Assembly: GCA_028710695.1 (NCBI GenBank)
Contig: JAQTTP010000001.1
Location: 11,833-75,832, forward strand
Length of the DNA: 64,000 nucleotides
Origin: Candidatus Iainarchaeum sp.
Lineage (GTDB): Archaea; Iainarchaeota; Iainarchaeia; Iainarchaeales; 0-14-0-20-30-16
Direction: 5' to 3'
Shown here piece by piece: positions 6,957 through 58,286 of this stretch; positions within the stretch are counted from its first letter, which is position 1, and every line of letters begins with the position of its first letter. Under the pieces are notes generated by a model. It did no database searches. It was not told the origin of the DNA and was given only the letters and a program-made list of their open reading frames with translations. Made by a program: the position numbers and the translations under genes.

Positions 6957-7024
6957 AAAAATCACAAAATATAAGATCCCTGTGCCTTTATGGCACTTTT
7001 TTCTTTCTTTTGGTGAGGTTAAGA

Positions 7025-7053
7025 TTTTCTTTCTTTTCCAAAAAGAAAGAAAA
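7025..7053 (-). terminator. perfect 13-bp hairpin with T-tracts just 3' of tRNA-Asp
   Basis: TTTTCTTTCTTTT-CCA-AAAAGAAAGAAAA (plus strand), 5 nt downstream of the tRNA 3' end. The oligo-T arm fits archaeal termination signals. Confidence 0.55.
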
Positions 7054-7058
7054 GGTTA

Positions 7059-7130
7059 CGCCCAAACCGGGAATCGAACCCGGATCGCAACCGTGACAGG
7101 GTTGCATCATAGCCATTAGACCATTTGGGC
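7059..7130 (-). tRNA. tRNA-Asp (GTC)
   Basis: 72 nt. Acceptor GCCCAAA/TTTGGGC, anticodon arm CAACC-CTGTCAC-GGTTG, T arm CCGGG-TTCGATT-CCCGG, discriminator G, no encoded CCA. Confidence 0.9.
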
Positions 7131-7200
7131 CCGGGATTTTTAAAAAAAATCCTAGGTTGGCAAAAAGACCATATCTTCGCGACAAGTCGCTTGATATTCC
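7131..7200 (-). promoter_or_regulatory. conserved structured 5' flank (candidate transcribed leader) of tRNA-Asp
   Basis: Near-identical to 18459-18518 upstream of tRNA-Gly. Two hairpins plus a conserved linker. A TATA-like TTTTTTATATAC lies about 25 nt upstream of the block. Confidence 0.5.
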
Positions 7201-7299
7201 AGATTACCTAGAAAAGGTAAAGTATATAAAAAATATTTTCCTATGAATCTGTTTTTAAAGGTTATCTATGTCTTTCTTGGTTTTTACCCCTATTTGCAT

Positions 7300-10693: not shown

Positions 10694-10795
10694 TTATACC
10701 CCTCCAGATAAGTATCACATTTTTAATCTGATAAAACATAGCTGTTAATATTTATAAATATATTGCACCCGCAAGGGTTTCTTTTGATGGACCGG

Positions 10796-10820
10796 AGCTT
10801 TTCTTTTTGAAAGAAAAGCT
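10796..10820 (-). terminator. 11-bp hairpin with T-tract 3' of tRNA-Lys
   Basis: AGCTTTTCTTT-TTG-AAAGAAAAGCT, 5 nt downstream of the tRNA 3' end. Confidence 0.5.
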
Positions 10821-10825
10821 TAGTA

Positions 10826-10899
10826 TGAGTTCGCGGGGATTCGGACCCCGGACACCTGGCTTAAAAGGCCAGTGCTCTACCAAGCTGAGCTACGAACCC
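10826..10899 (-). tRNA. tRNA-Lys (TTT)
   Basis: 74 nt. Acceptor GGGTTCG/CGAACTC (one G-U), D arm GCTC-AGCTTGGTA-GAGC, anticodon arm CTGGC-CTTTTAA-GCCAG. T loop reads TCCGAAT, so C at position 55. Confidence 0.85.
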
Positions 10900-10931
10900 A
10901 CTTTCTAAAAGAAATTCGATAATATCTCTTT

Positions 10932-11000: not shown

Positions 11001-13448
11001 ATGGATGATTTAACCCCCGCAATGAAGCAGTTTGTAAAAGTAAAAAGAGAATATCCTACTTCCTTGCTTCTATTCAGAATGGGCGATTTTTATGAAACTT
11101 TCTTTGATGATGCTAAAATTGCGTCCAAGGTTTTAAACATTACACTTACAAAAAGAGGGGCGCAAGGGGTTCCACTTGCGGGAATACCATACCACGCTTT
11201 AGATAATTACCTGGCAAAGCTTGTTAAGGCCGGGTATACAGTAACTATAGTAGAACAAATGGAAGATCCAAAACTTGCAAAAGGCCGACTAGTAAAAAGA
11301 GATGTTTTACGGACAATCACGCCTGGAACCGTATTAAATGGAGACTTTTTAGACTCAAAAACAAATAATTACATTGTAAGCCTGTGTTTATCTGAAAAAG
11401 TTGGACTAACTGTGTCCGATATTTCCACTGGAGAATTTAAGGTTACAGAACTAAATGATTTAGAAGAACTAGTACACGAATTGATAAAAATACAGCCCGC
11501 AGAAATAATTTTGCCAGACAATACAAGTGACAATATTATTAATAGAATTAAAAAAGTTACAAATTCTACAATCACTCCTTTTTCATTTATATTTTTTAAT
11601 AAAGAATTTGGATTAGAAGAACTAAAAAACCATTTTAATGTTCTATCCCTGGACGGATTTGAAATTAGTAACAAGGATCTAATTATTGCATCTGCAGGGG
11701 CACTATTATATTATTTTAGAATAACTCAAAAAAGCAGAATAAACCACATAAAGACAGTAAAGAAATACAGCATACATGAATTCATGTATTTAGATTCGCA
11801 GACTGTGCAAAATTTAGAACTTATAGAAAATAATTTTGACAGAACAAGAAAGCATACTTTGTTAGGTGTTTTAGATAATACAAATACATCTATGGGCGCA
11901 AGGATGTTAAAAAGAGAGATTTTGAGGCCATTGTTAAATAAACACAAAATTGACGCGAGACTAAATAAAGTTGAAACAATAATAAACTCCCAGTTATATT
12001 ATGACATCGCAGATATTCTAAAACAAATTCCAGATATTGAGAGAATACTTTCAAAAATATCAATGAACACCGCAAATGCAAGAGATTTAATTGGCTTAAA
12101 GAATGCAATATTTGTTTTGCCACAGCTAAAATCATTTTGTGAAAAAATCGAGAATTTTAATTTTGAATTAAACCAAGATATTTTAGATATTGGAAAACTT
12201 ATTGACACAAGCATAGTTAACGAACCACCAATGTTACTAAGGGATGGCGGAATTATAAAAAGAGGATTTAACCAAATAATTGACGAATTAAAAGATATAA
12301 AAGAAAATATAAGTGACAAAATTCTAGCAATCGAAAAAAGCGAACGTGAAAAAACCAACATAAAAGGTTTAAAAGTAAAATACAACAGAATCTTTGGTTA
12401 TTTTATTGAAATTCCCAAGGCAAATGAAAAAGTTCCAGAAAATTATCTTAGAAAACAAACATTAGTAAATGCAGAAAGATACATCACTGAAGAATTAAAA
12501 CAGTTGGAAGACACGTATTTAAGTTCTGAAGAAAAAGCAAAAACTTTGGAATACGATTTATTCTTTAAAATTGTTGAAGAAATTAATACAAAGATTGTTG
12601 ATTTGTACAATGTCACTAAAGGGATTGAAGAAATTGATTTTTTTAATTCAATGGCAATAACTGCAATAAAAAACAATTATGTAAAACCAATAATTTCAGA
12701 AAACTATAACTTGGAAATAACTAATGGACGACACCCAGTTATAGAAAAGATTGAAGAAAATGAATTCATAAAAAATAATTTGTTCTTAGACAAAAACGAA
12801 CAGAACATTATGATTTTGACTGGCCCAAACATGGCAGGAAAATCAACATACTTAAGACAAAATGCATTAATAATTTTAATGGCCCAAATGGGCTCTTTTG
12901 TCCCTGCAGAAAAGGCAAACATAGGATTAATAGACAGAATTTTTACAAGAATTGGTGCGAGAGATAATCTTGCAATGGGTCAAAGTACATTTATGGTAGA
13001 AATGAATGAGGTTGCAAATATTTTAAATAATGCAACCGAAAAAAGTTTTATTATTTTAGATGAAGTTGGAAGAGGAACTTCTACTTTTGATGGGCTAAGC
13101 ATTGCCTGGGCAGTAGTTGAATATATTTTTGAAAACATAAAAGCAAAAACTTTGTTTGCAACACACTATTACCAAATTACCGAGTTAGAAGAAAAGTTTG
13201 CGGGAATAAAAAATTATCATATTTCAGTAAAGGAACATAATGGAGACATAATATTTTTGAGAAAAATTCTACGTGGAAGTATTGATAAAAGTTATGGAAT
13301 AGAAGTTGCAAAGCTTGCAGGAATTCCAAAAGCAGTTATTGAAAGAGCAAAAGTAATTGAGTCACAAATGGAATTAAATATTAACAAAAAAGAAACAGCA
13401 CCAGAAATTACAGTAAAAAAACTTGTTGGCCAGAAGACTTTATTCTAA
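11001..13448 (+). CDS. mutS: DNA mismatch repair protein MutS
   Basis: 815 aa. N-terminal mismatch-binding region TPAMKQF..KREYPTSLLLFRMGDFYETF, Walker A GPNMAGKST, Walker B ILDEVGRGTSTFDG, THY motif. Confidence 0.95.
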   Translation: MDDLTPAMKQFVKVKREYPTSLLLFRMGDFYETFFDDAKIASKVLNITLTKRGAQGVPLAGIPYHALDNYLAKLVKAGYTVTIVEQMEDPKLAKGRLVKRDVLRTITPGTVLNGDFLDSKTNNYIVSLCLSEKVGLTVSDISTGEFKVTELNDLEELVHELIKIQPAEIILPDNTSDNIINRIKKVTNSTITPFSFIFFNKEFGLEELKNHFNVLSLDGFEISNKDLIIASAGALLYYFRITQKSRINHIKTVKKYSIHEFMYLDSQTVQNLELIENNFDRTRKHTLLGVLDNTNTSMGARMLKREILRPLLNKHKIDARLNKVETIINSQLYYDIADILKQIPDIERILSKISMNTANARDLIGLKNAIFVLPQLKSFCEKIENFNFELNQDILDIGKLIDTSIVNEPPMLLRDGGIIKRGFNQIIDELKDIKENISDKILAIEKSEREKTNIKGLKVKYNRIFGYFIEIPKANEKVPENYLRKQTLVNAERYITEELKQLEDTYLSSEEKAKTLEYDLFFKIVEEINTKIVDLYNVTKGIEEIDFFNSMAITAIKNNYVKPIISENYNLEITNGRHPVIEKIEENEFIKNNLFLDKNEQNIMILTGPNMAGKSTYLRQNALIILMAQMGSFVPAEKANIGLIDRIFTRIGARDNLAMGQSTFMVEMNEVANILNNATEKSFIILDEVGRGTSTFDGLSIAWAVVEYIFENIKAKTLFATHYYQITELEEKFAGIKNYHISVKEHNGDIIFLRKILRGSIDKSYGIEVAKLAGIPKAVIERAKVIESQMELNINKKETAPEITVKKLVGQKTLF

Positions 13449-13491: not shown

Positions 13492-16400
13492 ATGAAATAT
13501 GGTTGGTTAATCGTTGTCATAGTTACACTTTTACTTTTCCTTGCCGGCTGTATTAATGAAAAAGAAAAAACTGAACTAATTTCTTTGTGTAACAGTAAAA
13601 CAAACATTTCATACAGTGACGCCCCAATTTGCCTAACTGCGACAAAATGTCAAGAAAAATATAATTCTATTTTTGGATCGTCTTTAACGTCCGACACTTT
13701 AAAAATTGTAGAAACTGCAAAATCAAACTATCAAAAGTCTGTTGTGGATTCGTGGGTCGGAATAAGTAATCTATTAGAAACTACTAAAAAAGTAAATGAT
13801 GGTTGTGAGGATCCAACTTCAGATAGCTTTGTAAATGATTTACAATATTTATATTCTTACTCAAAAATAAGTTCAAAAGATCTAGCAAATTTAGGATATA
13901 GACAAACTGTACTTTTGGGAACAATAAAAAATATTTTAGAAAATAACGACATAAATCTTATGGGAGATACAGAAGTTTATAAAACCTACACAGAAGTCAT
14001 AGATAATTGGAATACTTTAATGAATAACTTTGTCTTAGTAAATAAAGAATTTAATTTACAACAGACAAAATACAATTATTGGGCAACATTTAACAGCAGC
14101 TATCTTTATGCTCCAGGAAAAGTTTCGAGCCAGTCTGTTGATAGTTACAAAAACATAATAAAATATGGCTTATTACAAGATGACTTATTTGGATTTACTC
14201 TGGACATAATTCCCGAAAACACGTTATTATCTGCCTTTGCAGATGCGATTTATGATAATGTAATAGGTAGCGATAGTGTAAGCTATGAAAATCTAAGCTC
14301 GGTATTTGAACAGTATTTTAATCTTGGCGATTTTATAAAAGAATATTCCAGTTTGTTTGGATATGGCGGCACATTAATTAATAGTTTAAATGGAAATATT
14401 TCAGAGCTCGACTCAGAAATTAGAACATTGGAATTAACATTAGACACACAGAAAAAAGATATAGAAAAAAATTTTGATGAACTTAAAAACTTAGAAGAAA
14501 ACAGTGACACAGAAAGTTATTTACTATCATACTTTGGAATGGACACGAAAAAAATTGATTATTCCGAAAAAATTGCGAACTTAAAGCTTCAATTACAAAA
14601 CTTAGATAAATCTCTTGGAAAGAAATACCAGGTAACAAATCAAATTGAAAATGAATTAAAAACGATTTTAGATTACAAAAATAAGCAGGCAGAAAATAAT
14701 AATCTTATTTCTTTTTTGTGTAGTTCAGAACTTAATTCAATAATTACTGAAAATAAAAACAATGCAACTTTGAGTTATTATTTTAATAAATTTAAAAGTT
14801 CCAAAGATATCACTGACTGTTATTACTTCTTAAAAAATTCCGAAAATACTGCTGAAACAGATTGTGACTTTGAACTTAAAAAGCTAATTGACGAACTTCA
14901 TTTAGAATACAACTCTGACCCCCAATTCTCTTGTGAAGAACTACAAAAGCTGAAATCTAATATTCTTTTGTATCTAGACAAAATTACTTTTGGAGAAATA
15001 AAAAATAATGTAATTAATGCCGCAGAGAAAGTTAATGTAATTAATTATAAAAGCCCAATTTGTGCAAAACCAGAATCTTATGATTTGCTTGAATTTAAAA
15101 AGCAAATAAAGGGGGTTATTGAAATTTCAGAAAGCATTATCGACTCTGGGCTACAAGGACTAATTGAAAAAATTAATTATTGGAATACAAAAAGTGCAGA
15201 AGTTTTGGAAAACTCTTTGTCTTGCCACCTTACAAATAAAGCAAGGTTATCAAACAATAGCTTAATTTTTGATGTAGGCTTTAATTATGATGGAAAAATT
15301 AATACAAAAATAAAAACAAATTACAATATTACAAGTTTGTCAGGGCAATGTTTAGACAGTTATATCTGTAAGAACAACTATTGTGACTTGATTTTTAGCT
15401 GTTTAAAAAAATTAACTAATTTAGTAATAGAATTTGAAAGTTATAAACAAGAGAAACAAGAAATTAACTATTCGGACGATTTAGAAATAGCTCAAAAGTT
15501 TTGTTTTGAAAATGATAATTCAAACCCGATTTTTGACGAAATATATTCCGCAGATAAAATCAGCGTTTATTCTGATTATGGCAAAGAAATTAAACATTAT
15601 TTAAGTGACAAAAAAATTCAACTGTGGAATCAAGTATTCGAAAAGGGAGATTGTATTTTTATAAAATATTATTTTTATGATGCAATAAAGAAGGCTTTGT
15701 TATTAGAAAGCACAGATAAAATTTCCGAAAACATTACCAGATATAAATATAAGTTAGAATTAGAAAATACAATTTCGGTAACTCAAAATAACATAGCAGT
15801 TAATTTAGATTTTTATTATGATGCTGCTACGCAAAACCCTACAATTTTTGACTCGCAGGGAAAAGAATACAAAATAACAAAAACAAATAGTGGTTTTGTT
15901 TTTTACGCAAGTCTGGGCGCATTGTCTAAAGAAACGTACTCTATTTTATTTTATGCAAAGGATGAACAAAAAAAGTTCATTTTTGAGCTTACAAACATAA
16001 AAACAACAATTTCAGACTTAGCAAATTCAAAAAGTAATACAATAAAAGAAGAGGCCAATAGCCTCCTAAAACAAATTTCTAGCTTAGAAACAGTCAATCC
16101 AAAAAACAACAAGCTTGCTTTTGACGAACTAACTGCTCTAAATAAATCTACGTCTGATCTAATTACAAAAAATAAGAAGTTTTTGGTTTGGGCAGATGAA
16201 AAAGATATCAGCATAAAAAAACTAAAAAATCAAAAAAACTTCTTAGAGCAATTAAAAAGTAACTCGGTAAATCTGATAAAAAAAGAATTAATAAAAGAAT
16301 TTTCCTCTTTTGAAGTCACAGAGGATTTAGCAAAGTTAAATGAGCAGATTAACCTTCTTGAACAATTACCTGAAAATTCAGATATTCCCAAATTAGAAAA

Positions 16401-17274
16401 CATTCGCGACAAATACACAAAAAATTTAGAATCACTTGTTGAAGATGGCTACAAAAAATATTTAATTTTACAAGATAATGCCAAAGCTTTAGATCTAACC
16501 TTTTATGAAAATTCAAGAATATTTGACTCCGCAAAAGAAAGTTTATTTTTTGAGGATTATAATGCCTTATTTAACACAATTACCCAAATGGATGCTTTAT
16601 TAACGCAAAATGAATTAATTATTAATACAAAGGTATCTGAAATAGGAGAAAATATTTTAACTAGATTTTCAAAAATAACTGATATAAAGAACAATTTGGA
16701 TCCAGTTTGGAACAAATATAACTTTTTATTAAACCAATTCAATTCTACAAATTTTGATCTTGTAAAAAAATACGAAAAAATTCCAGTCACTTTATCTGAT
16801 TTAAAAGACAACAAATCGATTTTGGATTCTGTGTCAAAAGAGATAGTTGCATTAAACTCTGCAGAAGAAAATTTCAAAAAGGAATATTTCAAAAATAAAT
16901 TCGACGCAATAAATGACTTTGACTCAAAGAAAATTGACAAAACTATTTTTAATTATCAGCTTGCAAGCAAAAACATTGATGACATTGAAGCAACTCTAAA
17001 CACACTGGCGACAAAAAATATTGATCTTGCGGAAAAAAGTGATGGCGATAAAAGTTTACTTTATGATGCAAAAACAAATTTAGAAAATAGAGATTATTTT
17101 GGAGCAATAATAAATGCAAAAAGAGCAATGGCGGGGGCAGTAACCACAACATCTAAAACTGCAATATATGGTTTAAGTATAGTTATTTTCGGCGCTGTTG
17201 CTTTTGCATTATATTCTTTAGTTTTCAAAAAAAGAAAAAAGAAAAAGATTACTTATTATACTGTTCCAAAATAA
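13492..17274 (+). CDS. giant coiled-coil surface protein, putative lipoprotein with C-terminal membrane anchor
   Basis: 1260 aa. N-terminal signal with lipobox-like LFLAGC, a long low-complexity K/E/N/L-rich heptad-like body, and C-terminal helix IYGLSIVIFGAVAFALYSLVF followed by KKRKKKK. Confidence 0.7.
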   Translation: MKYGWLIVVIVTLLLFLAGCINEKEKTELISLCNSKTNISYSDAPICLTATKCQEKYNSIFGSSLTSDTLKIVETAKSNYQKSVVDSWVGISNLLETTKKVNDGCEDPTSDSFVNDLQYLYSYSKISSKDLANLGYRQTVLLGTIKNILENNDINLMGDTEVYKTYTEVIDNWNTLMNNFVLVNKEFNLQQTKYNYWATFNSSYLYAPGKVSSQSVDSYKNIIKYGLLQDDLFGFTLDIIPENTLLSAFADAIYDNVIGSDSVSYENLSSVFEQYFNLGDFIKEYSSLFGYGGTLINSLNGNISELDSEIRTLELTLDTQKKDIEKNFDELKNLEENSDTESYLLSYFGMDTKKIDYSEKIANLKLQLQNLDKSLGKKYQVTNQIENELKTILDYKNKQAENNNLISFLCSSELNSIITENKNNATLSYYFNKFKSSKDITDCYYFLKNSENTAETDCDFELKKLIDELHLEYNSDPQFSCEELQKLKSNILLYLDKITFGEIKNNVINAAEKVNVINYKSPICAKPESYDLLEFKKQIKGVIEISESIIDSGLQGLIEKINYWNTKSAEVLENSLSCHLTNKARLSNNSLIFDVGFNYDGKINTKIKTNYNITSLSGQCLDSYICKNNYCDLIFSCLKKLTNLVIEFESYKQEKQEINYSDDLEIAQKFCFENDNSNPIFDEIYSADKISVYSDYGKEIKHYLSDKKIQLWNQVFEKGDCIFIKYYFYDAIKKALLLESTDKISENITRYKYKLELENTISVTQNNIAVNLDFYYDAATQNPTIFDSQGKEYKITKTNSGFVFYASLGALSKETYSILFYAKDEQKKFIFELTNIKTTISDLANSKSNTIKEEANSLLKQISSLETVNPKNNKLAFDELTALNKSTSDLITKNKKFLVWADEKDISIKKLKNQKNFLEQLKSNSVNLIKKELIKEFSSFEVTEDLAKLNEQINLLEQLPENSDIPKLENIRDKYTKNLESLVEDGYKKYLILQDNAKALDLTFYENSRIFDSAKESLFFEDYNALFNTITQMDALLTQNELIINTKVSEIGENILTRFSKITDIKNNLDPVWNKYNFLLNQFNSTNFDLVKKYEKIPVTLSDLKDNKSILDSVSKEIVALNSAEENFKKEYFKNKFDAINDFDSKKIDKTIFNYQLASKNIDDIEATLNTLATKNIDLAEKSDGDKSLLYDAKTNLENRDYFGAIINAKRAMAGAVTTTSKTAIYGLSIVIFGAVAFALYSLVFKKRKKKKITYYTVPK

Positions 17275-17283
17275 TTTAAGTAA

Positions 17284-18264
17284 TCAATTCAAGCCAATGA
17301 TTTTACTTACCTTCTTCAATTGTTTTTTGTTCATTGAAAGCAAGGGGTAGTAAATATTTTCACAGTAACCACTGAAACAATCTTTTCCCAGAAACCCATA
17401 AAGCTTTTTGAAAAACTTGTCATATTTTGTTTCTAAGTATTCTTTAAGCTTGTCACAAAATATTTTATTTGGAGTATCAGTCACTACTGGATTTGTTTCT
17501 TCTGCGGGCAGAGTAGTTGTTTGAGTTGAACTAGGCTCTGTTGTTGTAGTCGTTGTTTCTGTTGTGGTTGTAGTTTGTGTTGGAGCTGGCTCTTGCTGAG
17601 CAGGTGGTTGAGTTGTAGTTGTTTCTGTAGGTGCCGGAGGCGGTGTTATTACCTCTGGAACGGAATTGGCTTTATAATAATTATAATATTTCATCACTGT
17701 TTGGACATAGCCATTATTGTTGGGATCAACATATAGGCCATCAATCTGATCTACATCTTGCCAACCATATCTATAAGCAGACGCAACCTTATTCAGATCT
17801 CCAGAATAGTGGTCTGACAAGGCCTTAAGAAACCAACAACCTCTATTAAAGCTTTGGGCGGGGTCAAAAGCATTATCCATATATGGCGCCTTTGCAGGAT
17901 CTGCTTCTGCAGGCATATCATACTTCCAGTTCTTTGGGCTTGGATATGGCACACCAGCCACACCTGGGCCTGTTAGCTGTAAGATTCCTTTACCATAATA
18001 GCTACCACACCATTGTGGTGTTCCGGAGTCATAGGCTAGCTTTTCTTCTTCGTTCACACAAAGTGGATTAAAATCTGATTCTTTATGTGCAATTGCTGAA
18101 ACAAAATAAGGATCTAAGCCCCAGCCATCTTTACAAATTTGGTTTATTTGCACCCAATATGTGCAAATTGGCTCGCTTCCATAAGCTTTAGGGCATTGGT
18201 CATAAGAAAATGACAAAGAAATCAATGCTACAAGAAAAAATCCAAAAATAAATTTATAGCTCAT
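17284..18264 (-). CDS. secreted SLT-family lytic transglycosylase-like protein with Thr/Pro-rich linker
   Basis: Signal peptide FGFFLVALISLSFS. SLT motifs AIAHKESDFNP (ES), GKGILQLT (GLMQ-like) and ASAYRYGW (AYNxG-like). Linker PPPAPTETTTTQPPAQQEPAPTQTTTTTETTTTTTEP. Confidence 0.75.
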   Translation of the reverse strand: MSYKFIFGFFLVALISLSFSYDQCPKAYGSEPICTYWVQINQICKDGWGLDPYFVSAIAHKESDFNPLCVNEEEKLAYDSGTPQWCGSYYGKGILQLTGPGVAGVPYPSPKNWKYDMPAEADPAKAPYMDNAFDPAQSFNRGCWFLKALSDHYSGDLNKVASAYRYGWQDVDQIDGLYVDPNNNGYVQTVMKYYNYYKANSVPEVITPPPAPTETTTTQPPAQQEPAPTQTTTTTETTTTTTEPSSTQTTTLPAEETNPVVTDTPNKIFCDKLKEYLETKYDKFFKKLYGFLGKDCFSGYCENIYYPLLSMNKKQLKKVSKIIGLN

Positions 18265-18353
18265 CTAAAAAATACACAAAATTAGTATTTATAACTTTCT
18301 CTTTAGACAACCGGGGCTTTATGCCCCCTCTTTTCTTTTTTGGTGAACTTATG

Positions 18354-18379
18354 CTTTTTTCTTTTGAAAAAGAAAAAAG
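18354..18379 (-). terminator. hairpin with T-tracts 3' of tRNA-Gly
   Basis: CTTTTTTCTTT-TGAA-AAAGAAAAAAG, 7 nt downstream of the tRNA 3' end. Confidence 0.5.
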
Positions 18380-18386
18380 GATAGAG

Positions 18387-18457
18387 TGCGAATGCCGGGA
18401 TTTGAACCCGGGTCACGGCCTTGGCAAGGCCGCAGTCTACCACTGACCTACAATCGC
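18387..18457 (-). tRNA. tRNA-Gly (GCC)
   Basis: 71 nt. Acceptor GCGATTG/CATTCGC (one U5-U68 mismatch), anticodon arm CGGCC-TTGCCAA-GGCCG, T arm CCGGG-TTCAAAT-CCCGG, discriminator A. Confidence 0.88.
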
Positions 18458-18458
18458 T

Positions 18459-18518
18459 CCGGGATTTTTAAAAAATCCTAGGTTGGCAAAATGACCATAT
18501 CCCACAGAGGGATATTCC
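18459..18518 (-). promoter_or_regulatory. conserved structured 5' flank (candidate transcribed leader) of tRNA-Gly
   Basis: Second copy of the block at 7131-7200. TATA-like GATATAATAC lies about 20-25 nt upstream of the block. Confidence 0.5.
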
Positions 18519-18556
18519 GTACCTGTCAAATTGTATTATATCTTCTACTTAGGGGT

Positions 18557-28176: not shown

Positions 28177-28198
28177 CATTTTGCTTTAAAGCAAAATG
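28177..28198 (+). terminator. perfect 22-nt palindrome/hairpin downstream of rpl10e
   Basis: CATTTTGCTTTAAAGCAAAATG followed by a T-rich tract. Confidence 0.45.
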
Positions 28199-28323: not shown

Positions 28324-30609
28324 ATGAATAAAAATATTCTTTGGTTTAAGGAAATACATAAAGACGATATACCTGCAGTTGGTGGGAAAGGCGCAAATCT
28401 GGGAGAAATGGCAAATTCAAACTTTCCAATACCGGGCGGGTTTGTTGTTACTGCTTATGCTTACATAAAAAATTGTGAACAACTAGGCATTTTAGAAAAA
28501 ATCCAAAAGATGGAATCAAGCATAAACGTAGAAGACAGCGAAGAATTAAACAAAAAATCCAAAGAAATTAGAGATTTAATTCTAAAAACAGACATGATAC
28601 AAGAATTAAAAACTGAAATTTCAAAAGCATATGAAAAAATGGGCACAAAAACATATGTTGCTGTTCGTTCCAGCGCTACTGCGGAGGATTTGCCTGGCGC
28701 CAGCTTTGCAGGACAACAAGAAACTTTCCTTAATATTTTTGAAACTAAGAATTTATTAGAGCACGTAAGAAAATGTTGGGCATCCTTGTTTACATCAAGA
28801 GCAATTTATTATAGAAAGAGGCAGGGTTTCGATATTGAAAAGGTTGCAATTGCGGTTGTTGTGCAAAAGATGGCAAACTCAGAAATATCTGGAATTGTAT
28901 TCACTGCAAATCCAATATCAAACAACCTAGATGAATTAGTTGTTGAAGCAGGATATGGCCTAGGAGAGGCAATTGTTTCTGGTTCAATTACCCCGGATAC
29001 TTATCTTTACAACAAAAAAACAAAAAAAATAGTTGAAAAAACAATTGCAACACAAACTTGGAAATACACAAAAAACACCTTAGGAAATAAAAAAGAAATC
29101 GTGCTTCCAAAAGATCAAAAATTACAAAAATTAAGTGATGACAAAATCCTAGAGTTATCAAAAATTTGTGTAAATATTGAAAATCATTACGACAAGCCAA
29201 TGGATATTGAGTGGGCTTTGGAAAAAAATGAATTATATATTGTACAAGCAAGGCCAATAACTACTTTAAAAACAGAAAAAGCAGAGGAATTTGAAACCGA
29301 GGCAAATAAAAAAATATTATTAACTGGGCTGGGAGCATCACCTGGATTTGCGTCAGGAACAGTAAAAATAATTAAGGGTTTATCAGAACTACAGAAAATC
29401 AATAAAGGAGATATAATGGTAACAAAGATGACTACTCCTGACATGGTTCCAGCAATGAAAAGAGCATCCGGAATAATTACTGATGAGGGTGGAATTACCT
29501 GCCACGCAGCAATTGTTTCAAGAGAGCTTGGAATTCCTGCAATAGTTGGTACAGAAAAGGCAACAAAAATATTAAAAGATGAGGAAGTTGTAACTGTGGA
29601 TGCTAGCCACGGCCACGTATATGCGGGAACAGTTTTGCATAAAGAAAGTCCAGAAATTACAACAAAACATGTTGAAAGAAGCGATTTTTTAACTGTAACA
29701 AAAGTAAAAGTGAATGTTGCATTCCCTGAGAGTGCGGAAAGAGCCTCAAAATACAATATTGATGGTGTTGGTTTGCTTAGAGCAGAGCATATGATAACAA
29801 CAAGCGGAATACATCCATTCCACATGGTAAAGCAAGGCAAACAAGACAAATTAAAAGACTTAGTTAAAGAAGGAATAAAAAAAGTTGCACAGAATTTCAA
29901 AAACAAGCCGGTATATTATAGAACATTTGATGCAAGAACTGATGAATTTATAAATTTGAAGGGCGGAGACAAAGAACCAAAGGAAGACAATCCAATGCTT
30001 GGTTGGCACGGAATCAGAAGGGATTTAGATCAGGCAGAGGTATTAAAGGCGCAATTCAAAGCAATAAAAGAACTTTATGATGAGGGCTTCCACAATTTAG
30101 GTATTATGATTCCATTCACAATAAATGTTGAGGAATACAAAAAGGCAAAAGAACTGGCAAAAGAGGTTGGATTAATACCACACAAACATTGTTTCTTTGG
30201 AGTTATGATTGAAACTCCTGCTGCGGCATTAATAATAGATGAATATATTAACGAAAAATTGGATTTTATAAGCTTTGGGACAAACGATTTAACACAGCTT
30301 GTTTTGGGGATTGATAGAAACAATGAAAAAATTCAGACACAATTTTCTGAAAAGCATTTAGCAGTTTTAAAATTGATTGCATATGTGATAAAGAAATGTA
30401 AAGCGAGAGGAGTAAGAACTTCTGTATGTGGACAATCTGCTAGCGACCCTGAAATGGTTAAGTATTTGATTAAATTTGGAATTGACAGCTTGTCAGTAAA
30501 CATAGATGCAATTGACAAGATCAAGGAAACTGTTGAGCTTGAAGAAAAGAAATTAATTCTAGATGCAATAAGGTCTAGAAATATAGATAAAAAGTATGAG
30601 ATTGATTAA
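28324..30609 (+). CDS. ppsA: phosphoenolpyruvate synthase (pyruvate, water dikinase)
   Basis: 761 aa. N-terminal ATP-grasp VGGKGANLGEM, phosphohistidine swivel GGITCHAAIVSRELGIPAIVG, C-terminal PEP-utilising TIM barrel (FISFGTNDLTQ). Confidence 0.95.
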   Translation: MNKNILWFKEIHKDDIPAVGGKGANLGEMANSNFPIPGGFVVTAYAYIKNCEQLGILEKIQKMESSINVEDSEELNKKSKEIRDLILKTDMIQELKTEISKAYEKMGTKTYVAVRSSATAEDLPGASFAGQQETFLNIFETKNLLEHVRKCWASLFTSRAIYYRKRQGFDIEKVAIAVVVQKMANSEISGIVFTANPISNNLDELVVEAGYGLGEAIVSGSITPDTYLYNKKTKKIVEKTIATQTWKYTKNTLGNKKEIVLPKDQKLQKLSDDKILELSKICVNIENHYDKPMDIEWALEKNELYIVQARPITTLKTEKAEEFETEANKKILLTGLGASPGFASGTVKIIKGLSELQKINKGDIMVTKMTTPDMVPAMKRASGIITDEGGITCHAAIVSRELGIPAIVGTEKATKILKDEEVVTVDASHGHVYAGTVLHKESPEITTKHVERSDFLTVTKVKVNVAFPESAERASKYNIDGVGLLRAEHMITTSGIHPFHMVKQGKQDKLKDLVKEGIKKVAQNFKNKPVYYRTFDARTDEFINLKGGDKEPKEDNPMLGWHGIRRDLDQAEVLKAQFKAIKELYDEGFHNLGIMIPFTINVEEYKKAKELAKEVGLIPHKHCFFGVMIETPAAALIIDEYINEKLDFISFGTNDLTQLVLGIDRNNEKIQTQFSEKHLAVLKLIAYVIKKCKARGVRTSVCGQSASDPEMVKYLIKFGIDSLSVNIDAIDKIKETVELEEKKLILDAIRSRNIDKKYEID

Positions 30610-34908: not shown

Positions 34909-36129
34909 ATGGCAAGTACAGATAAAAAATATGAGCAGGTAGAAAAGGAGATCTTCAAAAACAAAATTAAAAAATTAGGAAAAATACAAGGTCGACACAC
35001 AGAGCTCATATCTCTATATGTTCCATTTGGCACAGACAGAGGAACAGTAATGTCACAACTAACACAGGAAGTAAACCAAGCTTCAAACATAAAAAGCCCA
35101 ACTACTAGAAAAAATGTACAGGCGGCATTAAGAAAAATTGCAGAATACTTAAGATTAATAGATTTTAAGCTTCCGGACAATGGCTTGGTTGTTTTTTGCG
35201 GTAATGTAAGCGAAAGAGAGGGCAGACCAGATATACAACTTTTCCATGTTACCCCCATAAGGAAGTTAAACATGAAGACATATAGATGTGACTCAGAATT
35301 TGTAATTGAGCCCCTAAAAGAAATGCTTACTCCTGACAAGTCATATTTAATTATTGCAATAGATAACAAAGAATCAACTACCGCTGTTTTAGAAGGAAAA
35401 AAATACAGAATTATTGACAGAGCACATTCAACTGTTCCCGGAAAGATAAAAGCAGGTGGGCAGTCAGCACACAGATATGAACATTTAAGATTAGATGCTG
35501 CAAATGATTTTTACCACAGGGTTGCAGAACACATAAACAAAGAAGTTGTGCCGTATGTTGAAAAGGTAAACGGAGTAGTTCTGGGCGGCCCAGGGTCTAC
35601 AAAAAGAGACTTTTTTGACAAAGAATATTTAGATTATAGAATTAGAGACAAGGTAATTGGCTTTTTAGATGTTACTTATACAGACGAATCAGGAATCCGA
35701 GAAATAATTGATTCTGCCCAAGACATATTAAAAGAAACAGAAATAGTAATTGAAAAACAGGCAATTTCTGAATTTTTTAAGGCCGCAATAAAATCAAATT
35801 TAGCAGCATATGGCTTTGACGATGTTATTTCTGCACTAAAAACCAACAGGGCAAGCAAAGTATTAGTTTCTGAAGGACTAAACAAAGAAATTAAGGTTGC
35901 TGAATGTCTAAATTGTAGTAAAACAAAAATTTTGTTTGACGAAAAAGATAGCAAAAAATGTGAATGTACTGGAGATTTAGAGGAAATTGAAACACTATCT
36001 CTTGCAGAATATATTACAGAACTATCAGAAAAAAGCAGCACAGATGTAATAATAATTTCTACAGACACGGACGAAGGTGAGCAATTCCTTAATGCATTTG
36101 GTGGTATTGGTGCAATTCTCAGATATTAA
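34909..36129 (+). CDS. prf1: peptide chain release factor aRF1
   Basis: 406 aa with NIKS motif (ASNIKSPTTRKN) and GGQ motif (KAGGQSAHRYEHLR). Confidence 0.95.
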   Translation: MASTDKKYEQVEKEIFKNKIKKLGKIQGRHTELISLYVPFGTDRGTVMSQLTQEVNQASNIKSPTTRKNVQAALRKIAEYLRLIDFKLPDNGLVVFCGNVSEREGRPDIQLFHVTPIRKLNMKTYRCDSEFVIEPLKEMLTPDKSYLIIAIDNKESTTAVLEGKKYRIIDRAHSTVPGKIKAGGQSAHRYEHLRLDAANDFYHRVAEHINKEVVPYVEKVNGVVLGGPGSTKRDFFDKEYLDYRIRDKVIGFLDVTYTDESGIREIIDSAQDILKETEIVIEKQAISEFFKAAIKSNLAAYGFDDVISALKTNRASKVLVSEGLNKEIKVAECLNCSKTKILFDEKDSKKCECTGDLEEIETLSLAEYITELSEKSSTDVIIISTDTDEGEQFLNAFGGIGAILRY

Positions 36130-39424: not shown

Positions 39425-39922
39425 TTATTTGGTTAATTTTAAGCCTGTTTTTACTTTAGTTGTTAGCATTGCTTTCTCTTTCTTGATATTTATAAGGATC
39501 TCTCTTTTCTTCCATTGTCTTTTTCCGCCTACAGCATTAGTTTCTAATAAACCAATGTCAACAAGGGTCTTTATGTAAGGGTAAAGGCTCTTTTCGTTCT
39601 TATATTCTATGAAAAACATCTGTTTTACTCTATCTTTTATTGTTTGCATGTCTACCCATTCTTCGAAGCCAACAACACTTATTATGTGATAAGCCTGGGT
39701 ATTTTTCATCGGATCTATGTAATTCCATAAATCATCTACCATAACTTCTTCAGGTTCTTCGGAATCGTTATGTATACTTTTCTTAGGTTCACTTTGCTTT
39801 TCCCCTTTGATTTCGAATATTTCTGGATTTTCAGGTTCTTTTTTTGTTTTTACTTCGTGTTCCTTAGTTTTTTCTTCAGTCTTCTTCGAGAATAAGCTTT
39901 TTATTTTATCAAATAAACCCAT
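39425..39922 (-). CDS. hypothetical protein with acidic N-terminal region and probable C-terminal winged-helix domain
   Basis: C-terminal LYPYIKTLVDIGLLETNAVGGKRQWKK looks like a recognition helix plus wing. GTGAT SD precedes ATG-39922. The gene abuts the GTAATTAC array. Confidence 0.5.
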   Translation of the reverse strand: MGLFDKIKSLFSKKTEEKTKEHEVKTKKEPENPEIFEIKGEKQSEPKKSIHNDSEEPEEVMVDDLWNYIDPMKNTQAYHIISVVGFEEWVDMQTIKDRVKQMFFIEYKNEKSLYPYIKTLVDIGLLETNAVGGKRQWKKREILINIKKEKAMLTTKVKTGLKLTK

Positions 39923-39945
39923 TTCTATCACAACACCGTTCATTG

Positions 39946-40045
39946 GTAATTACCGTTATTACAATAATTACGTACGAGTATTTATAATAATTACTGTAAT
40001 TACCAGTAATTACCCTCCGTAACTACCGCAATTACCGTAATTACC
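39946..40045. repeat. left array of the 9-bp-spaced palindromic octamer GTAATTAC(C)
   Basis: Units start at 39946, 39955 (GTTATTAC), 39964 (ATAATTAC), 39987 (ATAATTAC), 39996, 40006, 40019 (GTAACTAC), 40028 (GCAATTAC) and 40037. Confidence 0.9.
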
Positions 40046-40274: not shown

Positions 40275-40319
40275 TGTAACTACAGTAATTACCGTAATGA
40301 CCGTAATTACTATAATTAC
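40275..40319. repeat. right array of five 9-bp units
   Basis: GTAACTACA, GTAATTACC, GTAATGACC, GTAATTACT and ATAATTACT at exact 9-bp spacing. Ends 33 nt from the tRNAi-Met 3' end. Confidence 0.9.
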
Positions 40320-40351
40320 TTCAAGCCCCAGTTAAATTGACTAAAATAAGA

Positions 40352-40426
40352 TAGCGGGAGTTGGATTTGAACCAACGGCCTCCGGGTTATGAGCCCGGCG
40401 GGCACTCCAGGCTGCCCTACCCCGCT
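40352..40426 (-). tRNA. initiator tRNA-Met (CAT)
   Basis: 75 nt. A1-U72 acceptor AGCGGGG/TCCCGCT, anticodon arm CCGGG-CTCATAA-CCCGG with three consecutive G-C pairs, T arm GTTGG-TTCAAAT-CCAAC. These are archaeal initiator hallmarks. Confidence 0.88.
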
Positions 40427-40450
40427 ATATTATGTAATGATAGTATGGTA

Positions 40451-57139: not shown

Positions 57140-57212
57140 GGACTTGTGAGGTAATTGGATAACCTAGCGGGCTTCGGACCCGCCTATCGGGGTTCGAGTC
57201 CCTGCGAGTCCA
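57140..57212 (+). tRNA. tRNA-Arg (TCG)
   Basis: 73 nt. Acceptor GGACTTG/CGAGTCC, D arm AGGT-AATTGGATA-ACCT, anticodon arm GCGGG-CTTCGGA-CCCGC, T arm CGGGG-TTCGAGT-CCCTG, discriminator A. Confidence 0.9.
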
Positions 57213-58286
57213 CTAAGTAGGGTATAGCTCAAATTGTCCCTCTTTTATAGTATAGAGAACGAATTTTTCAGTAGTTTCTCCATTTTCATCAAATGAAACT
57301 CCAAAGTTTGTAGTTATTGCACTATCTTTGAATTTTTTGGCAGTACAAGCCACATCATCTTTGCAAATTGAATAAATTTTTGCATATGCATTTGTTAAAT
57401 TATAGTATTGCCAAGAAATCTGTGCTGGCTCCTCTGAATATTTTTCTTTGTATTTTTTATAAAATTCTGTATTTTTATCTAAAAAAGTAGTGCTAAAAAT
57501 TATTCCGTCAGTAGCATTTCCGCCTGTCTTCATTAAATCTGGGTTTTGACATGCTTGGCCACACAAAATTTGTTGTTTTAAGCCCAATTCTCGCGCCTGT
57601 TTTGCAATTTCGCCAACATTTACTGCAAATGCGCCAATATAAATCGCGTCAACGTTTTCGTCAATTTTTAGTAAAGTTGATTTTACGTCTGTAGATTCAT
57701 TAAATTGTTCTATTAAAGAAACATTTCCTCCTAATTCTAAGTATGGCTTTTCAAAAGCATTTTTTACACCTAAACCATAGTCGTCATTTTTGTAAATTAT
57801 TGCAATGTTCTTTAGATTAAGATTGGCATATGCGAGTTTTGCTAAATCTTTGCCTTCTTGTACTGCAGATGGTTGCACTCTAAAAGTATTTAGTCCATTT
57901 GTTGTATACTTTGCAGATGCGGCAATTGCAAACAAAATTTTATTATCCTCTTTTATTGGTTCTTGTAATAGTATTGAATTTGGTGATCCCAAAGTAAAAA
58001 ATGCAGTAATATCTTTGTCTATTAGATAATTATATTCACTTAACGTGTCCTTTGTTGTACTCTTTGTATCCTCCAGATAAAATTCAACATCCTTACCTTC
58101 TGTTTTTAGTTCTTCAATAGCCAGATTAACTCCCTTCTGCATTAAGTCTCCTTGTCTGGACTCTACCCCTGTCATAGGAAGGAGAGCACCAATTTTTAGG
58201 TCGTTTGTAGAATTTGTGCTAAAAAGCAAAACAAAAACAATTACAACAATTAAAACTAATAATCCAATTAGCCAAACTTTTCTCAT
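57213..58286 (-). CDS. membrane-anchored type-1 periplasmic-binding-protein-fold solute receptor (LivJ/K-like)
   Basis: N-terminal TM anchor, then LKIGALLPMTGVESRQGDLMQKGVNLAIEEL, typical of the branched-chain amino acid/amide SBP family. Confidence 0.72.
   Translation of the reverse strand: MRKVWLIGLLVLIVVIVFVLLFSTNSTNDLKIGALLPMTGVESRQGDLMQKGVNLAIEELKTEGKDVEFYLEDTKSTTKDTLSEYNYLIDKDITAFFTLGSPNSILLQEPIKEDNKILFAIAASAKYTTNGLNTFRVQPSAVQEGKDLAKLAYANLNLKNIAIIYKNDDYGLGVKNAFEKPYLELGGNVSLIEQFNESTDVKSTLLKIDENVDAIYIGAFAVNVGEIAKQARELGLKQQILCGQACQNPDLMKTGGNATDGIIFSTTFLDKNTEFYKKYKEKYSEEPAQISWQYYNLTNAYAKIYSICKDDVACTAKKFKDSAITTNFGVSFDENGETTEKFVLYTIKEGQFELYPT

What the first reader, a model, noticed from the sequence alone, without database searches (positions are those of the whole stretch)
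6982..7200. tRNA-Asp sits in a conserved cassette whose 5' and 3' flanks recur around tRNA-Gly
Upstream flank, on the tRNA strand:
- Asp: GGAATATC-AAGCGACTTGTCGCGAA-GATATGGTCTTTTTGCCAACCTAGGATTTTTTTTAAAAATCCCGG, then the tRNA.
- Gly: GGAATATC-CCTCTGTGG-GATATGGTCATTTTGCCAACCTAGGATTTTTTAAAAATCCCGGA, then the tRNA.

About 43 nt are near-identical. The first hairpin keeps its outer stem (ATATC/GATAT), while the interior differs yet still pairs: GCGAC-TT-GTCGC in one copy, versus an extended stem ATATCCC/GGGATAT in the other. That pattern is expected for a selected RNA structure. The second hairpin is GGATTTTT/AAAAATCC.

TATA-like boxes (TTTTTTATATAC and GATATAATAC) lie about 20-25 nt upstream of the blocks. 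The blocks would therefore be transcribed as 5' leaders of about 60-70 nt and released by 5' maturation.

Downstream flanks are also parallel, read on the plus strand:
- Asp: GTGCC-TTTAT-GGCAC, then TTTTTTCTTTCTTTTGGTGAGGTTAAG, then a 13-bp hairpin.
- Gly: GGGGC-TTTAT-GCCCC, then CTCTTTTCTTTTTTGGTGAACTTATG, then an 11-bp hairpin.

Candidate functions, all inference: a leader-derived small RNA, a processing or regulatory element, or a shared promoter/terminator module.
Basis: seen in the sequence. Interest (0 to 1): 0.62.

Follow-up and report, generated by a model that had tools for sequence, protein, structure and literature searches.

The report
Shared flanks of two archaeal tRNA genes
In an uncultured DPANN archaeon, the tRNA-Asp and tRNA-Gly genes share a structured upstream leader and a terminator-like downstream module; related species have the same kind of flanks, which makes this a real but modest variant of ordinary tRNA-gene flanks rather than a new kind of gene.

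Summary
On the minus strand, tRNA-Asp (7130-7059) and tRNA-Gly (18457-18386) are each preceded by GGAATATC, a variable hairpin interior, and a 43-45 nt block. The two copies of that block differ by one substitution and one 2-nt indel. Both genes are followed by a similar T-rich hairpin, A-rich tract and GC hairpin.

The organism is a low-GC Diapherotrites (DPANN) archaeon from landfill metagenomes. Those metagenomes hold exactly two copies of the block.

Orthologous loci in four related species show a clade-wide Asp/Gly leader family:
- a T-tract plus G(C)CAAC(C) at a fixed -38 to -25;
- a GC-clamped T-run/A-run hairpin abutting the tRNA, with two compensatory pair changes;
- segments exchanged between Asp and Gly loci.

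Canonical TATA boxes, conserved in orthologs, put the predicted start site at the start of the block.

Best reading (about 0.45): transcribed pre-tRNA leader and trailer modules, kept alike by recombination, with T-tract terminators on the 3' side (shared with tRNA-Lys). No RNA data exist, so the start site, processing and function remain inferred. No Rfam family matches.

Rivals: a proximal promoter or operator DNA element, REP-like palindromes that collect beside tRNA genes, or a stable leader-derived sRNA. Interest is modest.

The parts
7223..7230 (-). Distal TATA box TTTATATA of tRNA-Asp. It ends 22 nt upstream of GGAATATC.
   Evidence: Sequence read. The box and the following ...CTAGGTAA are conserved in the orthologous loci L034 and L037. 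Leaderless mRNAs in the window show a TATA-to-start spacing of 21-25 nt.
7176..7200 (-). Start of the tRNA-Asp leader. GGAATATC (7200-7193) is shared with tRNA-Gly. The inner hairpin GCGAC-TT-GTCGC (7190-7179) is specific to tRNA-Asp. The predicted start site is near 7200.
   Evidence: AGCGA...TCGC recurs in the tRNA-Asp leaders of L034, L037 and L038.
7131..7175 (-). Shared leader block: GATATGG (3' arm of hairpin 1), T5 (7166-7162), GCCAACC (7161-7155), and hairpin 2 GGATTTTT-TTT-AAAAATCC (7152-7134) extended by CC/GG. CGG abuts the tRNA.
   Evidence: Covariance model R1 scores it 70.8 bits. In the metagenomes this stretch is covered by its own contig plus exactly one other contig, the tRNA-Gly copy.
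7059..7130 (-). tRNA-Asp (GTC); CCA is not encoded.
7025..7053 (-). Trailer hairpin A, TTTTCTTTCTTTT-TGG-AAAAGAAAGAAAA (13 bp). Its 5' arm is the likely oligo-T terminator of the tRNA.
   Evidence: Oligo-dT termination in archaea is described in PMC2253867 and PMC8716108.
6982..7017 (-). A-rich tract CCTCACCAAAAGAAAGAAAAAA followed by GC hairpin B, GTGCC-ATAAA-GGCAC (6996-6982). Read on the plus strand, this is a hairpin followed by a T-tract, i.e. terminator-like and facing the 3' end of the tRNA.
   Evidence: (flagged on the plus strand).
18534..18543 (-). Distal TATA-like box AGATATAATA of tRNA-Gly.
   Evidence: AAGATATAATA is conserved in the ortholog L027. AGATATAC sits 24 nt before the ATG of ORF 34909-36129, the spacing seen at the window's leaderless genes.
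18458..18518 (-). tRNA-Gly leader: GGAATATC-CCTCTGTGG-GATATGG (hairpin 1), TTTT (18491-18488), GCCAACC (18487-18481), hairpin 2 GGATTTTT-T-AAAAATCC (18478-18462), and CGGA.
   Evidence: R1 scores it 62.4 bits.
18386..18457 (-). tRNA-Gly (GCC).
18313..18379 (-). tRNA-Gly trailer: T-rich hairpin A (18379-18354, 12 bp), CACCAAAAAAGAAAAGAG, and GC hairpin B GGGGC-ATAAA-GCCCC (18327-18313).
10768..10820 (-). tRNA-Lys trailer of the same family: AGCTTTTCTTT-CAA-AAAGAAAAGCT (11 bp), CATCAAAAGAAA, and CCC-TTGC-GGG. There is no shared 5' block.

Best explanation
tRNA-Asp and tRNA-Gly are separate transcription units.

Promoter and leader. Each gene has a canonical archaeal TATA box placed so that transcription starts at or just inside GGAATATC. 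The shared block is therefore the transcribed 5' leader of the pre-tRNA (about 70 nt for Asp, about 60 nt for Gly), which RNase P removes. It belongs to a leader family specific to tRNA-Asp and tRNA-Gly in a genus-level clade of Diapherotrites (DPANN) archaea. The family is built from modules:
1. a start-proximal hairpin;
2. a T-tract plus G(C)CAAC(C);
3. a GC-clamped U-run/A-run hairpin stacked against the RNase P cleavage site.

Why the copies are alike. The two copies in this genome are nearly identical because leader segments recombine between the two loci (gene conversion, i.e. concerted evolution). The tRNA-proximal hairpin is additionally kept by selection on pairing.

Trailer. The 3' flank is the terminator region. 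An oligo-T tract directly after the tRNA is written as a palindrome, so that the opposite strand also carries a T-tract. It is followed by one or more GC-hairpin + T-tract units that face the gene on the opposite strand. tRNA-Lys shares this trailer family.

Inferred function, not shown. The leader acts in cis. Its T-tracts (T4-5 and T6-8) and hairpins set how much transcript reaches the tRNA and give RNase P a defined junction. It is not a separate gene.
For: Identity and copy number:
- The block is real and far beyond chance.
- The host is an archaeon of the Diapherotrites group. Its closest Cdc6 homolog is 94% identical, and the window holds an initiator tRNA with an A1:U72 pair and an Orc1/Cdc6 gene.

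Promoters:
- The tRNA-Asp box TTTATATA ends 22 nt before GGAATATC.
- Leaderless genes in this window have their TATA 3' end 21-25 nt before the ATG.
- The tRNA-Asp promoter is conserved in L034 and L037, and the tRNA-Gly box in L027. The similarity between the two paralogous leaders begins only at the predicted start site.

Leader family in relatives (gene identity 65-86%):
- T-tract + G(C)CAAC(C) lies at -38 to -25 in W_Asp, W_Gly, L032/L038_Gly, L046_Gly, L038_Asp and L037_Asp.
- Hairpin 2 is kept with two double (compensatory) changes: GGA/TCC in the window versus GCC/GGC in L032, L046 and L038.
- The 19-mer TTGAGCGAAGCGAAACATA is shared by the tRNA-Asp leader of L037 and the tRNA-Gly leader of L046, which are different species.
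- Paralogs within or across genomes are often more alike than orthologs.

Association with tRNA genes: across 278 kb of clade sequence, all nine GC-clamped T-run/A-run perfect palindromes found (six distinct once overlapping loci are merged) lie within 62 nt of a tRNA gene.

Termination and processing background:
- T5-T6 runs are not depleted in coding sense strands, so a leader T-tract need not abolish transcription.
- Archaeal RNA polymerase terminates at oligo-dT tracts (PMC2253867; PMC8716108), which fits the T-rich trailer.
- RNase P protein subunits have been reported in Diapherotrites (PMC4919917).
Against: - No RNA data: no RNA run holds the locus. The start site, leader processing and 3' ends are all inferred.
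- T8 in the tRNA-Asp leader is a strong archaeal termination signal (minimal signal T5, PMC2253867), and T>=7 runs are mildly depleted in ORFs (11 observed versus 19.3 expected). A long leader read through T5 + T8 is awkward for an essential single-copy tRNA.
- The fixed -38 to -31 position of the T-tract, which a canonical TTTTTATA occupies in L027, could instead mark a proximal promoter.
- Hairpin 2 is degenerate in one species at both loci (L031_Gly and L037_Asp), so it is dispensable.
- Hairpin 1 is not conserved.
- All stems are pure Watson-Crick pairs, so RNA-level and DNA-level pairing cannot be told apart.
- A groundwater variant (run X5) has a substitution in one arm of hairpin 2, and no compensating change could be seen.
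Confidence: 0.45

Rival explanations
1. Proximal promoter/insulator DNA element. The T-tract at -38 to -31 serves as the TATA element of the real tRNA promoter, and transcription starts at the T/A junction of the palindrome (about -10). The palindrome works as DNA, not as a transcribed hairpin: either as a bidirectional T-tract barrier that stops transcription arriving from upstream, or as an operator for a dimeric regulator. The distal TATA would then drive only a short terminated RNA.
For: - The T-tract + G(C)CAAC(C) sits at the same distance from tRNA +1 in seven leaders of five species, even though the sequence in between varies.
- In L027 the same position holds the canonical box TTTTTATA.
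- W_Lys has TTTATAAA at -41 to -34.
- A start near -10 would give an ordinary short leader and would avoid transcribing T6-T8.
- The same hairpin type (GCCTTTTTTTTGAAAAAGGC) sits 3' of tRNA-Lys in L034, where a terminator is expected.
- The stems are strictly Watson-Crick.
Against: - TCTTTTTG, TCATTTTG and GTTTTTGG have no TA step and do not resemble the TATA boxes seen in front of this organism's genes.
- Conserved canonical TATA boxes exist further upstream, and the paralog similarity starts at their predicted start site.
- In L034 the motif TTTTTCGCAACC is followed by more than 200 nt of other hairpins instead of the tRNA.
- Symmetric changes in both half-sites fit a nucleic-acid stem better than a protein-binding site.
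Confidence: 0.15
2. Small palindromic repeat elements (REP- or MITE-like) collect and recombine in the flanks of tRNA genes. The resemblance between the tRNA-Asp and tRNA-Gly flanks is then a by-product of duplication or gene conversion, with little or no function for the tRNA beyond incidental termination.
For: - Near-identical hairpins occur at non-orthologous places: L034 tRNA-Lys 3' flank versus L038 tRNA-Asp 5' flank.
- Copy number varies in tandem: 3 trailer units in L029 versus 1 in L027, L028 and L030, all of which encode an identical Cdc6. L038_Asp has two leader modules 55 nt apart, and L034 has an array of hairpins.
- Mosaic exchange between tRNA-Asp and tRNA-Gly leaders.
- Orthologous leaders diverge fast.
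- Relatives carry an IS200/IS605 TnpA(Y1) + TnpB pair next to tRNA-Lys.
Against: - The metagenomes hold only two copies of the block.
- No copy of the hairpin class lies away from a tRNA gene in 278 kb.
- There are no terminal inverted repeats or target duplications, and no transposase in the window.
- Compensatory changes in the hairpin and the fixed spacing to the tRNA argue for constraint.
Confidence: 0.25
3. The leader, or its 5' part (hairpin 1 ending at the T-tract), is released or terminated as a stable small RNA with a function of its own in trans.
For: - In four leaders (W_Asp, W_Gly, L037_Asp, L046_Gly) a hairpin immediately followed by a T-tract lies downstream of a canonical promoter.
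- G(C)CAAC(C) is a conserved motif predicted to be unpaired in the folds.
Against: - The 5' hairpin is the least conserved part.
- No Rfam family matches, even at E <= 5.
- There are no C/D or H/ACA boxes.
- No target could be found, and no RNA data exist.
Confidence: 0.1

Closest known systems
Archaeal stable-RNA gene promoters and oligo-T terminators (Methanococcus 'box A' TTTATATA promoters, from my own knowledge; oligo-dT termination, PMC2253867 and PMC8716108)
   Same: A canonical TATA box lies about 22 nt before the predicted start. A T-rich tract directly follows the tRNA. Each tRNA gene is an independent transcription unit.
   Different: The leader here is long (60-70 nt), structured, and shared by two different tRNA genes. 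The terminator tracts are written as long perfect palindromes and are followed by hairpin + T-tract units facing the opposite way.
tRNA gene organisation in another DPANN archaeon, Nanoarchaeum equitans: leaderless tRNA transcripts, no RNase P, and tRNA-C/D box sRNA co-transcripts (PMC10100707; PMC4247193, which cites Randau 2012)
   Same: The host is a DPANN archaeon. Some tRNAs in the window (Arg, iMet, possibly Lys) have TATA-like boxes close enough for very short or absent leaders.
   Different: tRNA-Asp and tRNA-Gly here have no TATA-like sequence at -30 to -22 and appear to carry long leaders. No C (RUGAUGA) or D (CUGA) box is present in the leader. RNase P proteins have been reported for Diapherotrites (PMC4919917).
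Bacterial REP/BIME palindromic elements and their Y1 (RAYT) transposases (from my own knowledge)
   Same: Short intergenic palindromes with variable tandem copy number, sequence homogenised within a genome, and a possible role in termination. Y1 transposase genes are present in relatives.
   Different: Copy number is very low and the elements are confined to tRNA flanks. The window has no RAYT. The stems are dominated by T-runs and A-runs.
Bacterial intrinsic terminators (GC hairpin + U-tract)
   Same: Hairpin B plus the T-tract on the plus strand fits the pattern.
   Different: It faces the 3' end of the tRNA with no convergent gene behind it, and the host is an archaeon, where a hairpin is not known to be required.

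Membership tests
Pre-tRNA 5' leader (transcribed, removed by RNase P) | A promoter at the right distance upstream of the start of the leader | tested here: met
   TTTATATA ends 22 nt before GGAATATC for tRNA-Asp, and AGATATAA ends 17 nt before it for tRNA-Gly. The window's leaderless genes show 21-25 nt spacing. The boxes are conserved in orthologs.
Pre-tRNA 5' leader (transcribed, removed by RNase P) | A primary transcript 5' end at the start of the block, with reads continuous into the tRNA | not testable with these tools
   No RNA runs hold the window.
Pre-tRNA 5' leader (transcribed, removed by RNase P) | RNase P is present in the organism | not tested
   The window contains no RNase P RNA. 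The literature reports RNase P protein subunits in Diapherotrites (PMC4919917). The rest of the genome is not available.
Archaeal oligo-T terminator | A T-tract of at least 5 directly downstream of the gene on the sense strand | tested here: met
   tRNA-Asp TTTTCTTTCTTTTT, tRNA-Gly TTTTTTCTTTTT, tRNA-Lys TTTTCTTT, each starting 3-7 nt after the tRNA.
Archaeal oligo-T terminator | Transcript 3' ends mapped at the tract | not testable with these tools
   No RNA data are available.
Any curated RNA family (Rfam 15) | A covariance-model match to the leader block | tested here: not met
   Only tRNA reaches the gathering score. At E <= 5 nothing overlaps 7131-7200 or 18458-18520.
Conserved structured RNA element | Compensatory base-pair changes in relatives | tested here: met
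   For hairpin 2, two pairs change on both sides between the window (GGA/UCC) and L032, L046 and L038 (GCC/GGC). Caveats: only 5-6 sequences are available, the hairpin is degenerate in L031 and L037, and hairpin 1 is not conserved.
MITE / REP / IS200-IS605-derived palindromic element | Dispersed multi-copy distribution, terminal repeats or target duplications, and an associated transposase | tested here: not met
   Two copies in four metagenomes. All hairpins of the class lie beside tRNA genes. No transposase in the window. IS605 genes occur only in relatives.
C/D box sRNA co-transcribed with a tRNA | C box RUGAUGA and D box CUGA | tested here: not met
   Neither motif is present in either leader (sequences).
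Integrative-element att site at a tRNA gene | A duplicated 3' part of the tRNA, and an integrase or viral sequence nearby | tested here: not met
   The repeat lies 5' of the tRNA and excludes the tRNA body. The viral collection gave only two chance hits, in 65% GC contigs.

The most novel reading that the evidence does not exclude
The leader family is a clade-specific cis-regulatory device that couples the output of tRNA-Asp and tRNA-Gly. This would be a T-tract/hairpin attenuator in an archaeal tRNA leader, or a leader read through its conserved G(C)CAAC(C) motif by a trans-acting factor. The two loci would be kept in step because they answer to the same factor.
Probability: 0.15. Interest if true: 0.6.

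Novelty: new variant of a known kind. Interest (0 to 1): 0.38.

Why it matters
Very little is known about how tRNA genes are transcribed and processed in DPANN archaea. The one studied case, Nanoarchaeum, is extreme: no leaders and no RNase P. This locus suggests that another DPANN lineage does the opposite for at least two tRNAs. It would use long, structured leaders that evolve in concert, and palindromic T-tract modules on both sides of the gene.

If the leader proves to be regulatory, it would be a rare example of cis-control of tRNA gene output in archaea. If it is only recombining spacer, it is still a clean small example of concerted evolution of tRNA flanks. It also gives a practical marker, the covariance model R1, for this clade.

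Tried and rejected
Searches that found nothing useful:
- Exact-pattern scans of the GTDB genome set, the JGI metagenomes and IMG/VR with 18-mers from the block gave only chance hits in unrelated, mostly bacterial or high-GC contigs. The source genome and its relatives are either absent from those collections or differ within the 18-mer.
- RNA runs were looked for twice from the window and none was found.
- Three Cdc6 homologs at 57-64% identity were fetched, but their loci hold no tRNA. Extending the window by 10 kb added no new tRNA. One look-up found nothing on record.

Ideas tested and dropped:
- Leader-trailer pairing. Full-precursor folds pair the leader with the trailer, but through different, non-homologous segments in tRNA-Asp and tRNA-Gly.
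- Replication origin (ORB) elements beside orc1/cdc6. The sequence does not resemble known ORBs, and the orc1 flanks have no long intergenic region.
- Leader peptide. The tiny ORF MV(F/I)LPT* is not kept in L032 or L046.
- Antisense ORF behind the SD-like GGTGA. It is not conserved at tRNA-Lys.
- Mimicry of the tRNA's own anticodon arm by GCCAACC. There is no covariation in relatives.
- Covariation counting on a MAFFT alignment of hairpin 2 was not useful, because the alignment is not structure-aware. The pairs were compared by hand instead.

Full report
**1. What is in the sequence**

The window has 31% G+C and five tRNA genes:
- Asp(GTC) at 7059-7130(-)
- Lys(TTT) at 10825-10900(-)
- Gly(GCC) at 18386-18457(-)
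- an initiator-type Met at 40350-40427(-)
- Arg(TCG) at 57140-57213(+)

On the tRNA strand, tRNA-Asp and tRNA-Gly are both preceded by three elements:
- GGAATATC;
- an interior that differs between the two (AAGCGACTTGTCGCGAA versus CCTCTGTGG);
- GATATGGTC[T/A]TTTTGCCAACCTAGGA[TT]TTTTTTAAAAATCCCGG, which runs right up to the tRNA.

A 21-mer from the block occurs exactly twice in the window, and no shuffle reached two matches. The leader alignment stands 13.9 SD above shuffles. The upstream regions of the other three tRNAs show no similarity to it.

The 3' flanks of tRNA-Asp and tRNA-Gly are also alike (z = 11.2). They resemble the tRNA-Lys 3' flank more weakly (z = 3.3-3.8). Each consists of:
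- a long perfect T-rich/A-rich hairpin (13, 12 and 11 bp);
- a CAYCAAAAGAAA-type tract;
- a short GC hairpin.

**2. Whose genome, and how many copies**

Pfam hits include Orc1/Cdc6, class I and II aminoacyl-tRNA synthetases, bacterial-type MutS and an SLT-domain protein. The closest Cdc6 homolog, at 94% identity, is named Candidatus Diapherotrites archaeon CG09_land.

The stretch is found in landfill metagenomes and, as a variant, in one groundwater metagenome.

I laid the assembled contigs of four landfill runs on the locus at 80% likeness. The block 7131-7175 is covered by its own contig and by exactly one other contig. That second contig carries the 2-nt deletion, and its loose end reads into the tRNA-Gly upstream sequence. 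The family therefore has two members in this organism.

Pattern scans of three public collections gave only chance hits. No Rfam family matches the leader, even at E <= 5.

**3. Relatives**

Gene order around both tRNAs is conserved, so I recovered orthologous loci through neighbouring proteins:
- tRNA-Gly loci: L027-L030, L031, L032/L033 and L046.
- tRNA-Asp loci: L037 and L038/L039, plus L034, whose contig ends just short of the tRNA.

Gene identity to the window is 77-86% (L027), 68-81% (L031, L037) and 65-77% (L032, L038). These are different species of one genus-level clade.

Four results matter.

(a) A module recurs at a fixed distance from the tRNA. The module is T-tract, then G(C)CAAC(C), then 2-3 nt, then a GC-clamped T-run/A-run hairpin, then 1-4 nt, then the tRNA. 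In six leaders the T-tract lies at -38 to -31:
- W_Asp and W_Gly;
- L032_Gly (TTTTTGGCCAACCTA-GCCTTTTTTCTAAAAAGGC-CGGA);
- L046_Gly (TTTTTGGCAGACCGT-GCCTTTTTTTGAAAAAGGC-TGGA);
- L038_Asp (TTTTTTCGCAACTT-GCCTTTTTTTTGAAAAAAGGC-AG, plus a second copy 55 nt upstream);
- L037_Asp (TTTTTTCGCAAC with a decayed hairpin).

(b) The outer pairs of the hairpin differ between the window (GGA/UCC) and the other species (GCC/GGC). Two pairs are changed on both sides.

(c) tRNA-Asp and tRNA-Gly leaders exchange sequence:
- a 19-mer is shared by the tRNA-Asp leader of L037 and the tRNA-Gly leader of L046;
- the tRNA-Asp leader in the window is a mosaic of tRNA-Gly-type ends (GGAATATC; GATATGG...CGG) around an interior AGCGA...TCGC that is typical of tRNA-Asp leaders;
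- for both leaders and trailers, several non-orthologous pairs score higher than orthologous ones.

(d) The modules are unstable:
- L027_Gly keeps only the hairpin;
- the L031/L037 species has lost the hairpin at both loci;
- L029 has three tandem trailer units where strains with an identical Cdc6 have one;
- L034 has an array of unrelated hairpins more than 200 nt long.

Across 278 kb of clade sequence, all nine GC-clamped T-run/A-run perfect palindromes found (six distinct once overlapping loci are merged) lie within 62 nt of a tRNA gene. Covariance model R1, built from three leaders, finds only the known copies plus L038_Asp.

**4. Where transcription probably starts**

Many genes in the window look leaderless, with TATA boxes of the TTTATAAA, TTATAAAT or AGATATAC type ending 21-25 nt before the ATG.

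- The tRNA-Asp box TTTATATA (7230-7223) ends 22 nt before GGAATATC.
- The tRNA-Gly box AGATATAA(TA) ends 14-17 nt before it.
- Both boxes are conserved in orthologs, whereas the similarity between the two paralogous leaders begins only at the predicted start.

This favours a transcribed leader of 60-70 nt.

The difficulty is the T-tracts inside the leader: T5 and T8 in tRNA-Asp, T4 and T6 in tRNA-Gly. Archaeal RNA polymerase can terminate at T5-T6 (PMC2253867). In this organism T5-T6 runs are not depleted in coding sense strands, but T>=7 runs are mildly depleted (11 observed versus 19.3 expected). Partial termination, i.e. attenuation, at the tRNA-Asp T8 is therefore plausible.

The alternative is that the conserved T-tract at -38 to -31 is itself the TATA element and transcription starts at about -10. 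The fixed spacing supports this, and so does L027, which has TTTTTATA at that position. Against it, the T-tracts lack any TA step and look unlike this organism's TATA boxes.

**5. The 3' side**

The T-rich arm of hairpin A begins 3-7 nt after the tRNA and is the expected oligo-T terminator. Its A-rich partner, and the following A-rich tract with a GC hairpin, read on the opposite strand as T-tracts. The second of these is preceded by a GC hairpin, and the terminator scan flags it on the plus strand.

The genes downstream of tRNA-Asp, tRNA-Gly and tRNA-Lys are co-directional with the tRNA, and their promoters lie just beyond these units. One inference is that the units stop divergent or antisense transcripts before they enter the tRNA gene. 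This is not shown.

**6. Verdict**

The cassette is real and is older than this species. It belongs to two small families of tRNA-flank modules:
- a leader family for tRNA-Asp and tRNA-Gly;
- a trailer family for tRNA-Asp, tRNA-Gly and tRNA-Lys.

Both families evolve in concert. The best-supported reading is that they are structured, transcribed pre-tRNA flanks made of promoter-leader and terminator modules, and not a separate gene (confidence about 0.45).

The main rivals are:
- a proximal promoter/insulator DNA element (0.15);
- REP-like palindromes that merely collect at tRNA genes (0.25);
- a stable leader-derived sRNA (0.1).

No RNA data are available, so TSS and 3'-end mapping would decide between them. 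By the usual scale this is a new variant of a known kind, and interest is modest.

Noticed in passing
window 39977-40045 and 40276-40319: Two arrays of a 9-nt repeat GTAATTACN with a palindromic core, 4-6 copies each. They flank about 230 nt between the 3' end of the initiator tRNA-Met and ORF 39425-39943(-). They could be iterons or a regulator-binding array, or the edge of an element integrated at the tRNA.
   Followed up: partly
window 28177-28198: A perfect 22-bp palindrome, CATTTTGCTTTAAAGCAAAATG, with no loop, in the 183-nt intergenic region before ORF 28324-30609(+). It is the only long T/A palindrome in the window that is not next to a tRNA.
   Followed up: no
L027 1-1013; L034 3-718: Relatives carry an IS200/IS605-type pair (Y1 TnpA plus TnpB) between MutS and tRNA-Lys. 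The window has none. The IS end next to the tRNA-Lys promoter has the hairpin CCAAC-N10-GTTGG.
   Followed up: partly
L029 8230-8483 versus L027, L028 and L030: Three tandem units of [CAAAAGAAAGAAAA + GC hairpin] lie 3' of tRNA-Gly in one strain, against one unit in strains that encode an identical Cdc6. This is strain-level copy-number variation of the trailer unit.
   Followed up: partly
L034 4240-4571: After the tRNA-Asp promoter and TTTTTCGCAACC comes an array of different T/A-rich hairpins more than 200 nt long. The contig ends before the tRNA.
   Followed up: no
window 7173-7153 and 18499-18479 (minus strand): A tiny ORF inside the shared block: ATG GTC (T/A)TT TTG CCA ACC TAG, giving MVFLPT* and MVILPT*. 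The frame is not kept in L032 or L046, so it is probably not coding.
   Followed up: yes
window 13492-17274 (+): A 1260-aa ORF with no Pfam match, conserved in position and length in all relatives between MutS and the tRNA-Gly locus.
   Followed up: no
window 11001-13448, 54825-56573, 17284-18264: Bacterial-type MutS and MutL, and a protein with a lytic transglycosylase (SLT) domain, in a DPANN archaeon.
   Followed up: no
window 6999-7179, variant in run X5 (groundwater): A variant population keeps tRNA-Asp unchanged and keeps the leader block, but differs in several places: A7136C in one arm of hairpin 2, a T/A tract 1 nt shorter, a changed loop in hairpin A (CCA to TTT), and a 4-nt insertion between the tRNA and hairpin A.
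   Followed up: partly
whole window, coding strands: Sense-strand T>=7 runs are under-represented (11 observed versus 19.3 expected from codon shuffles), whereas T5-T6 and A-runs are not. Many genes have a TATA box 21-25 nt before the ATG, which suggests widespread leaderless mRNAs.
   Followed up: partly
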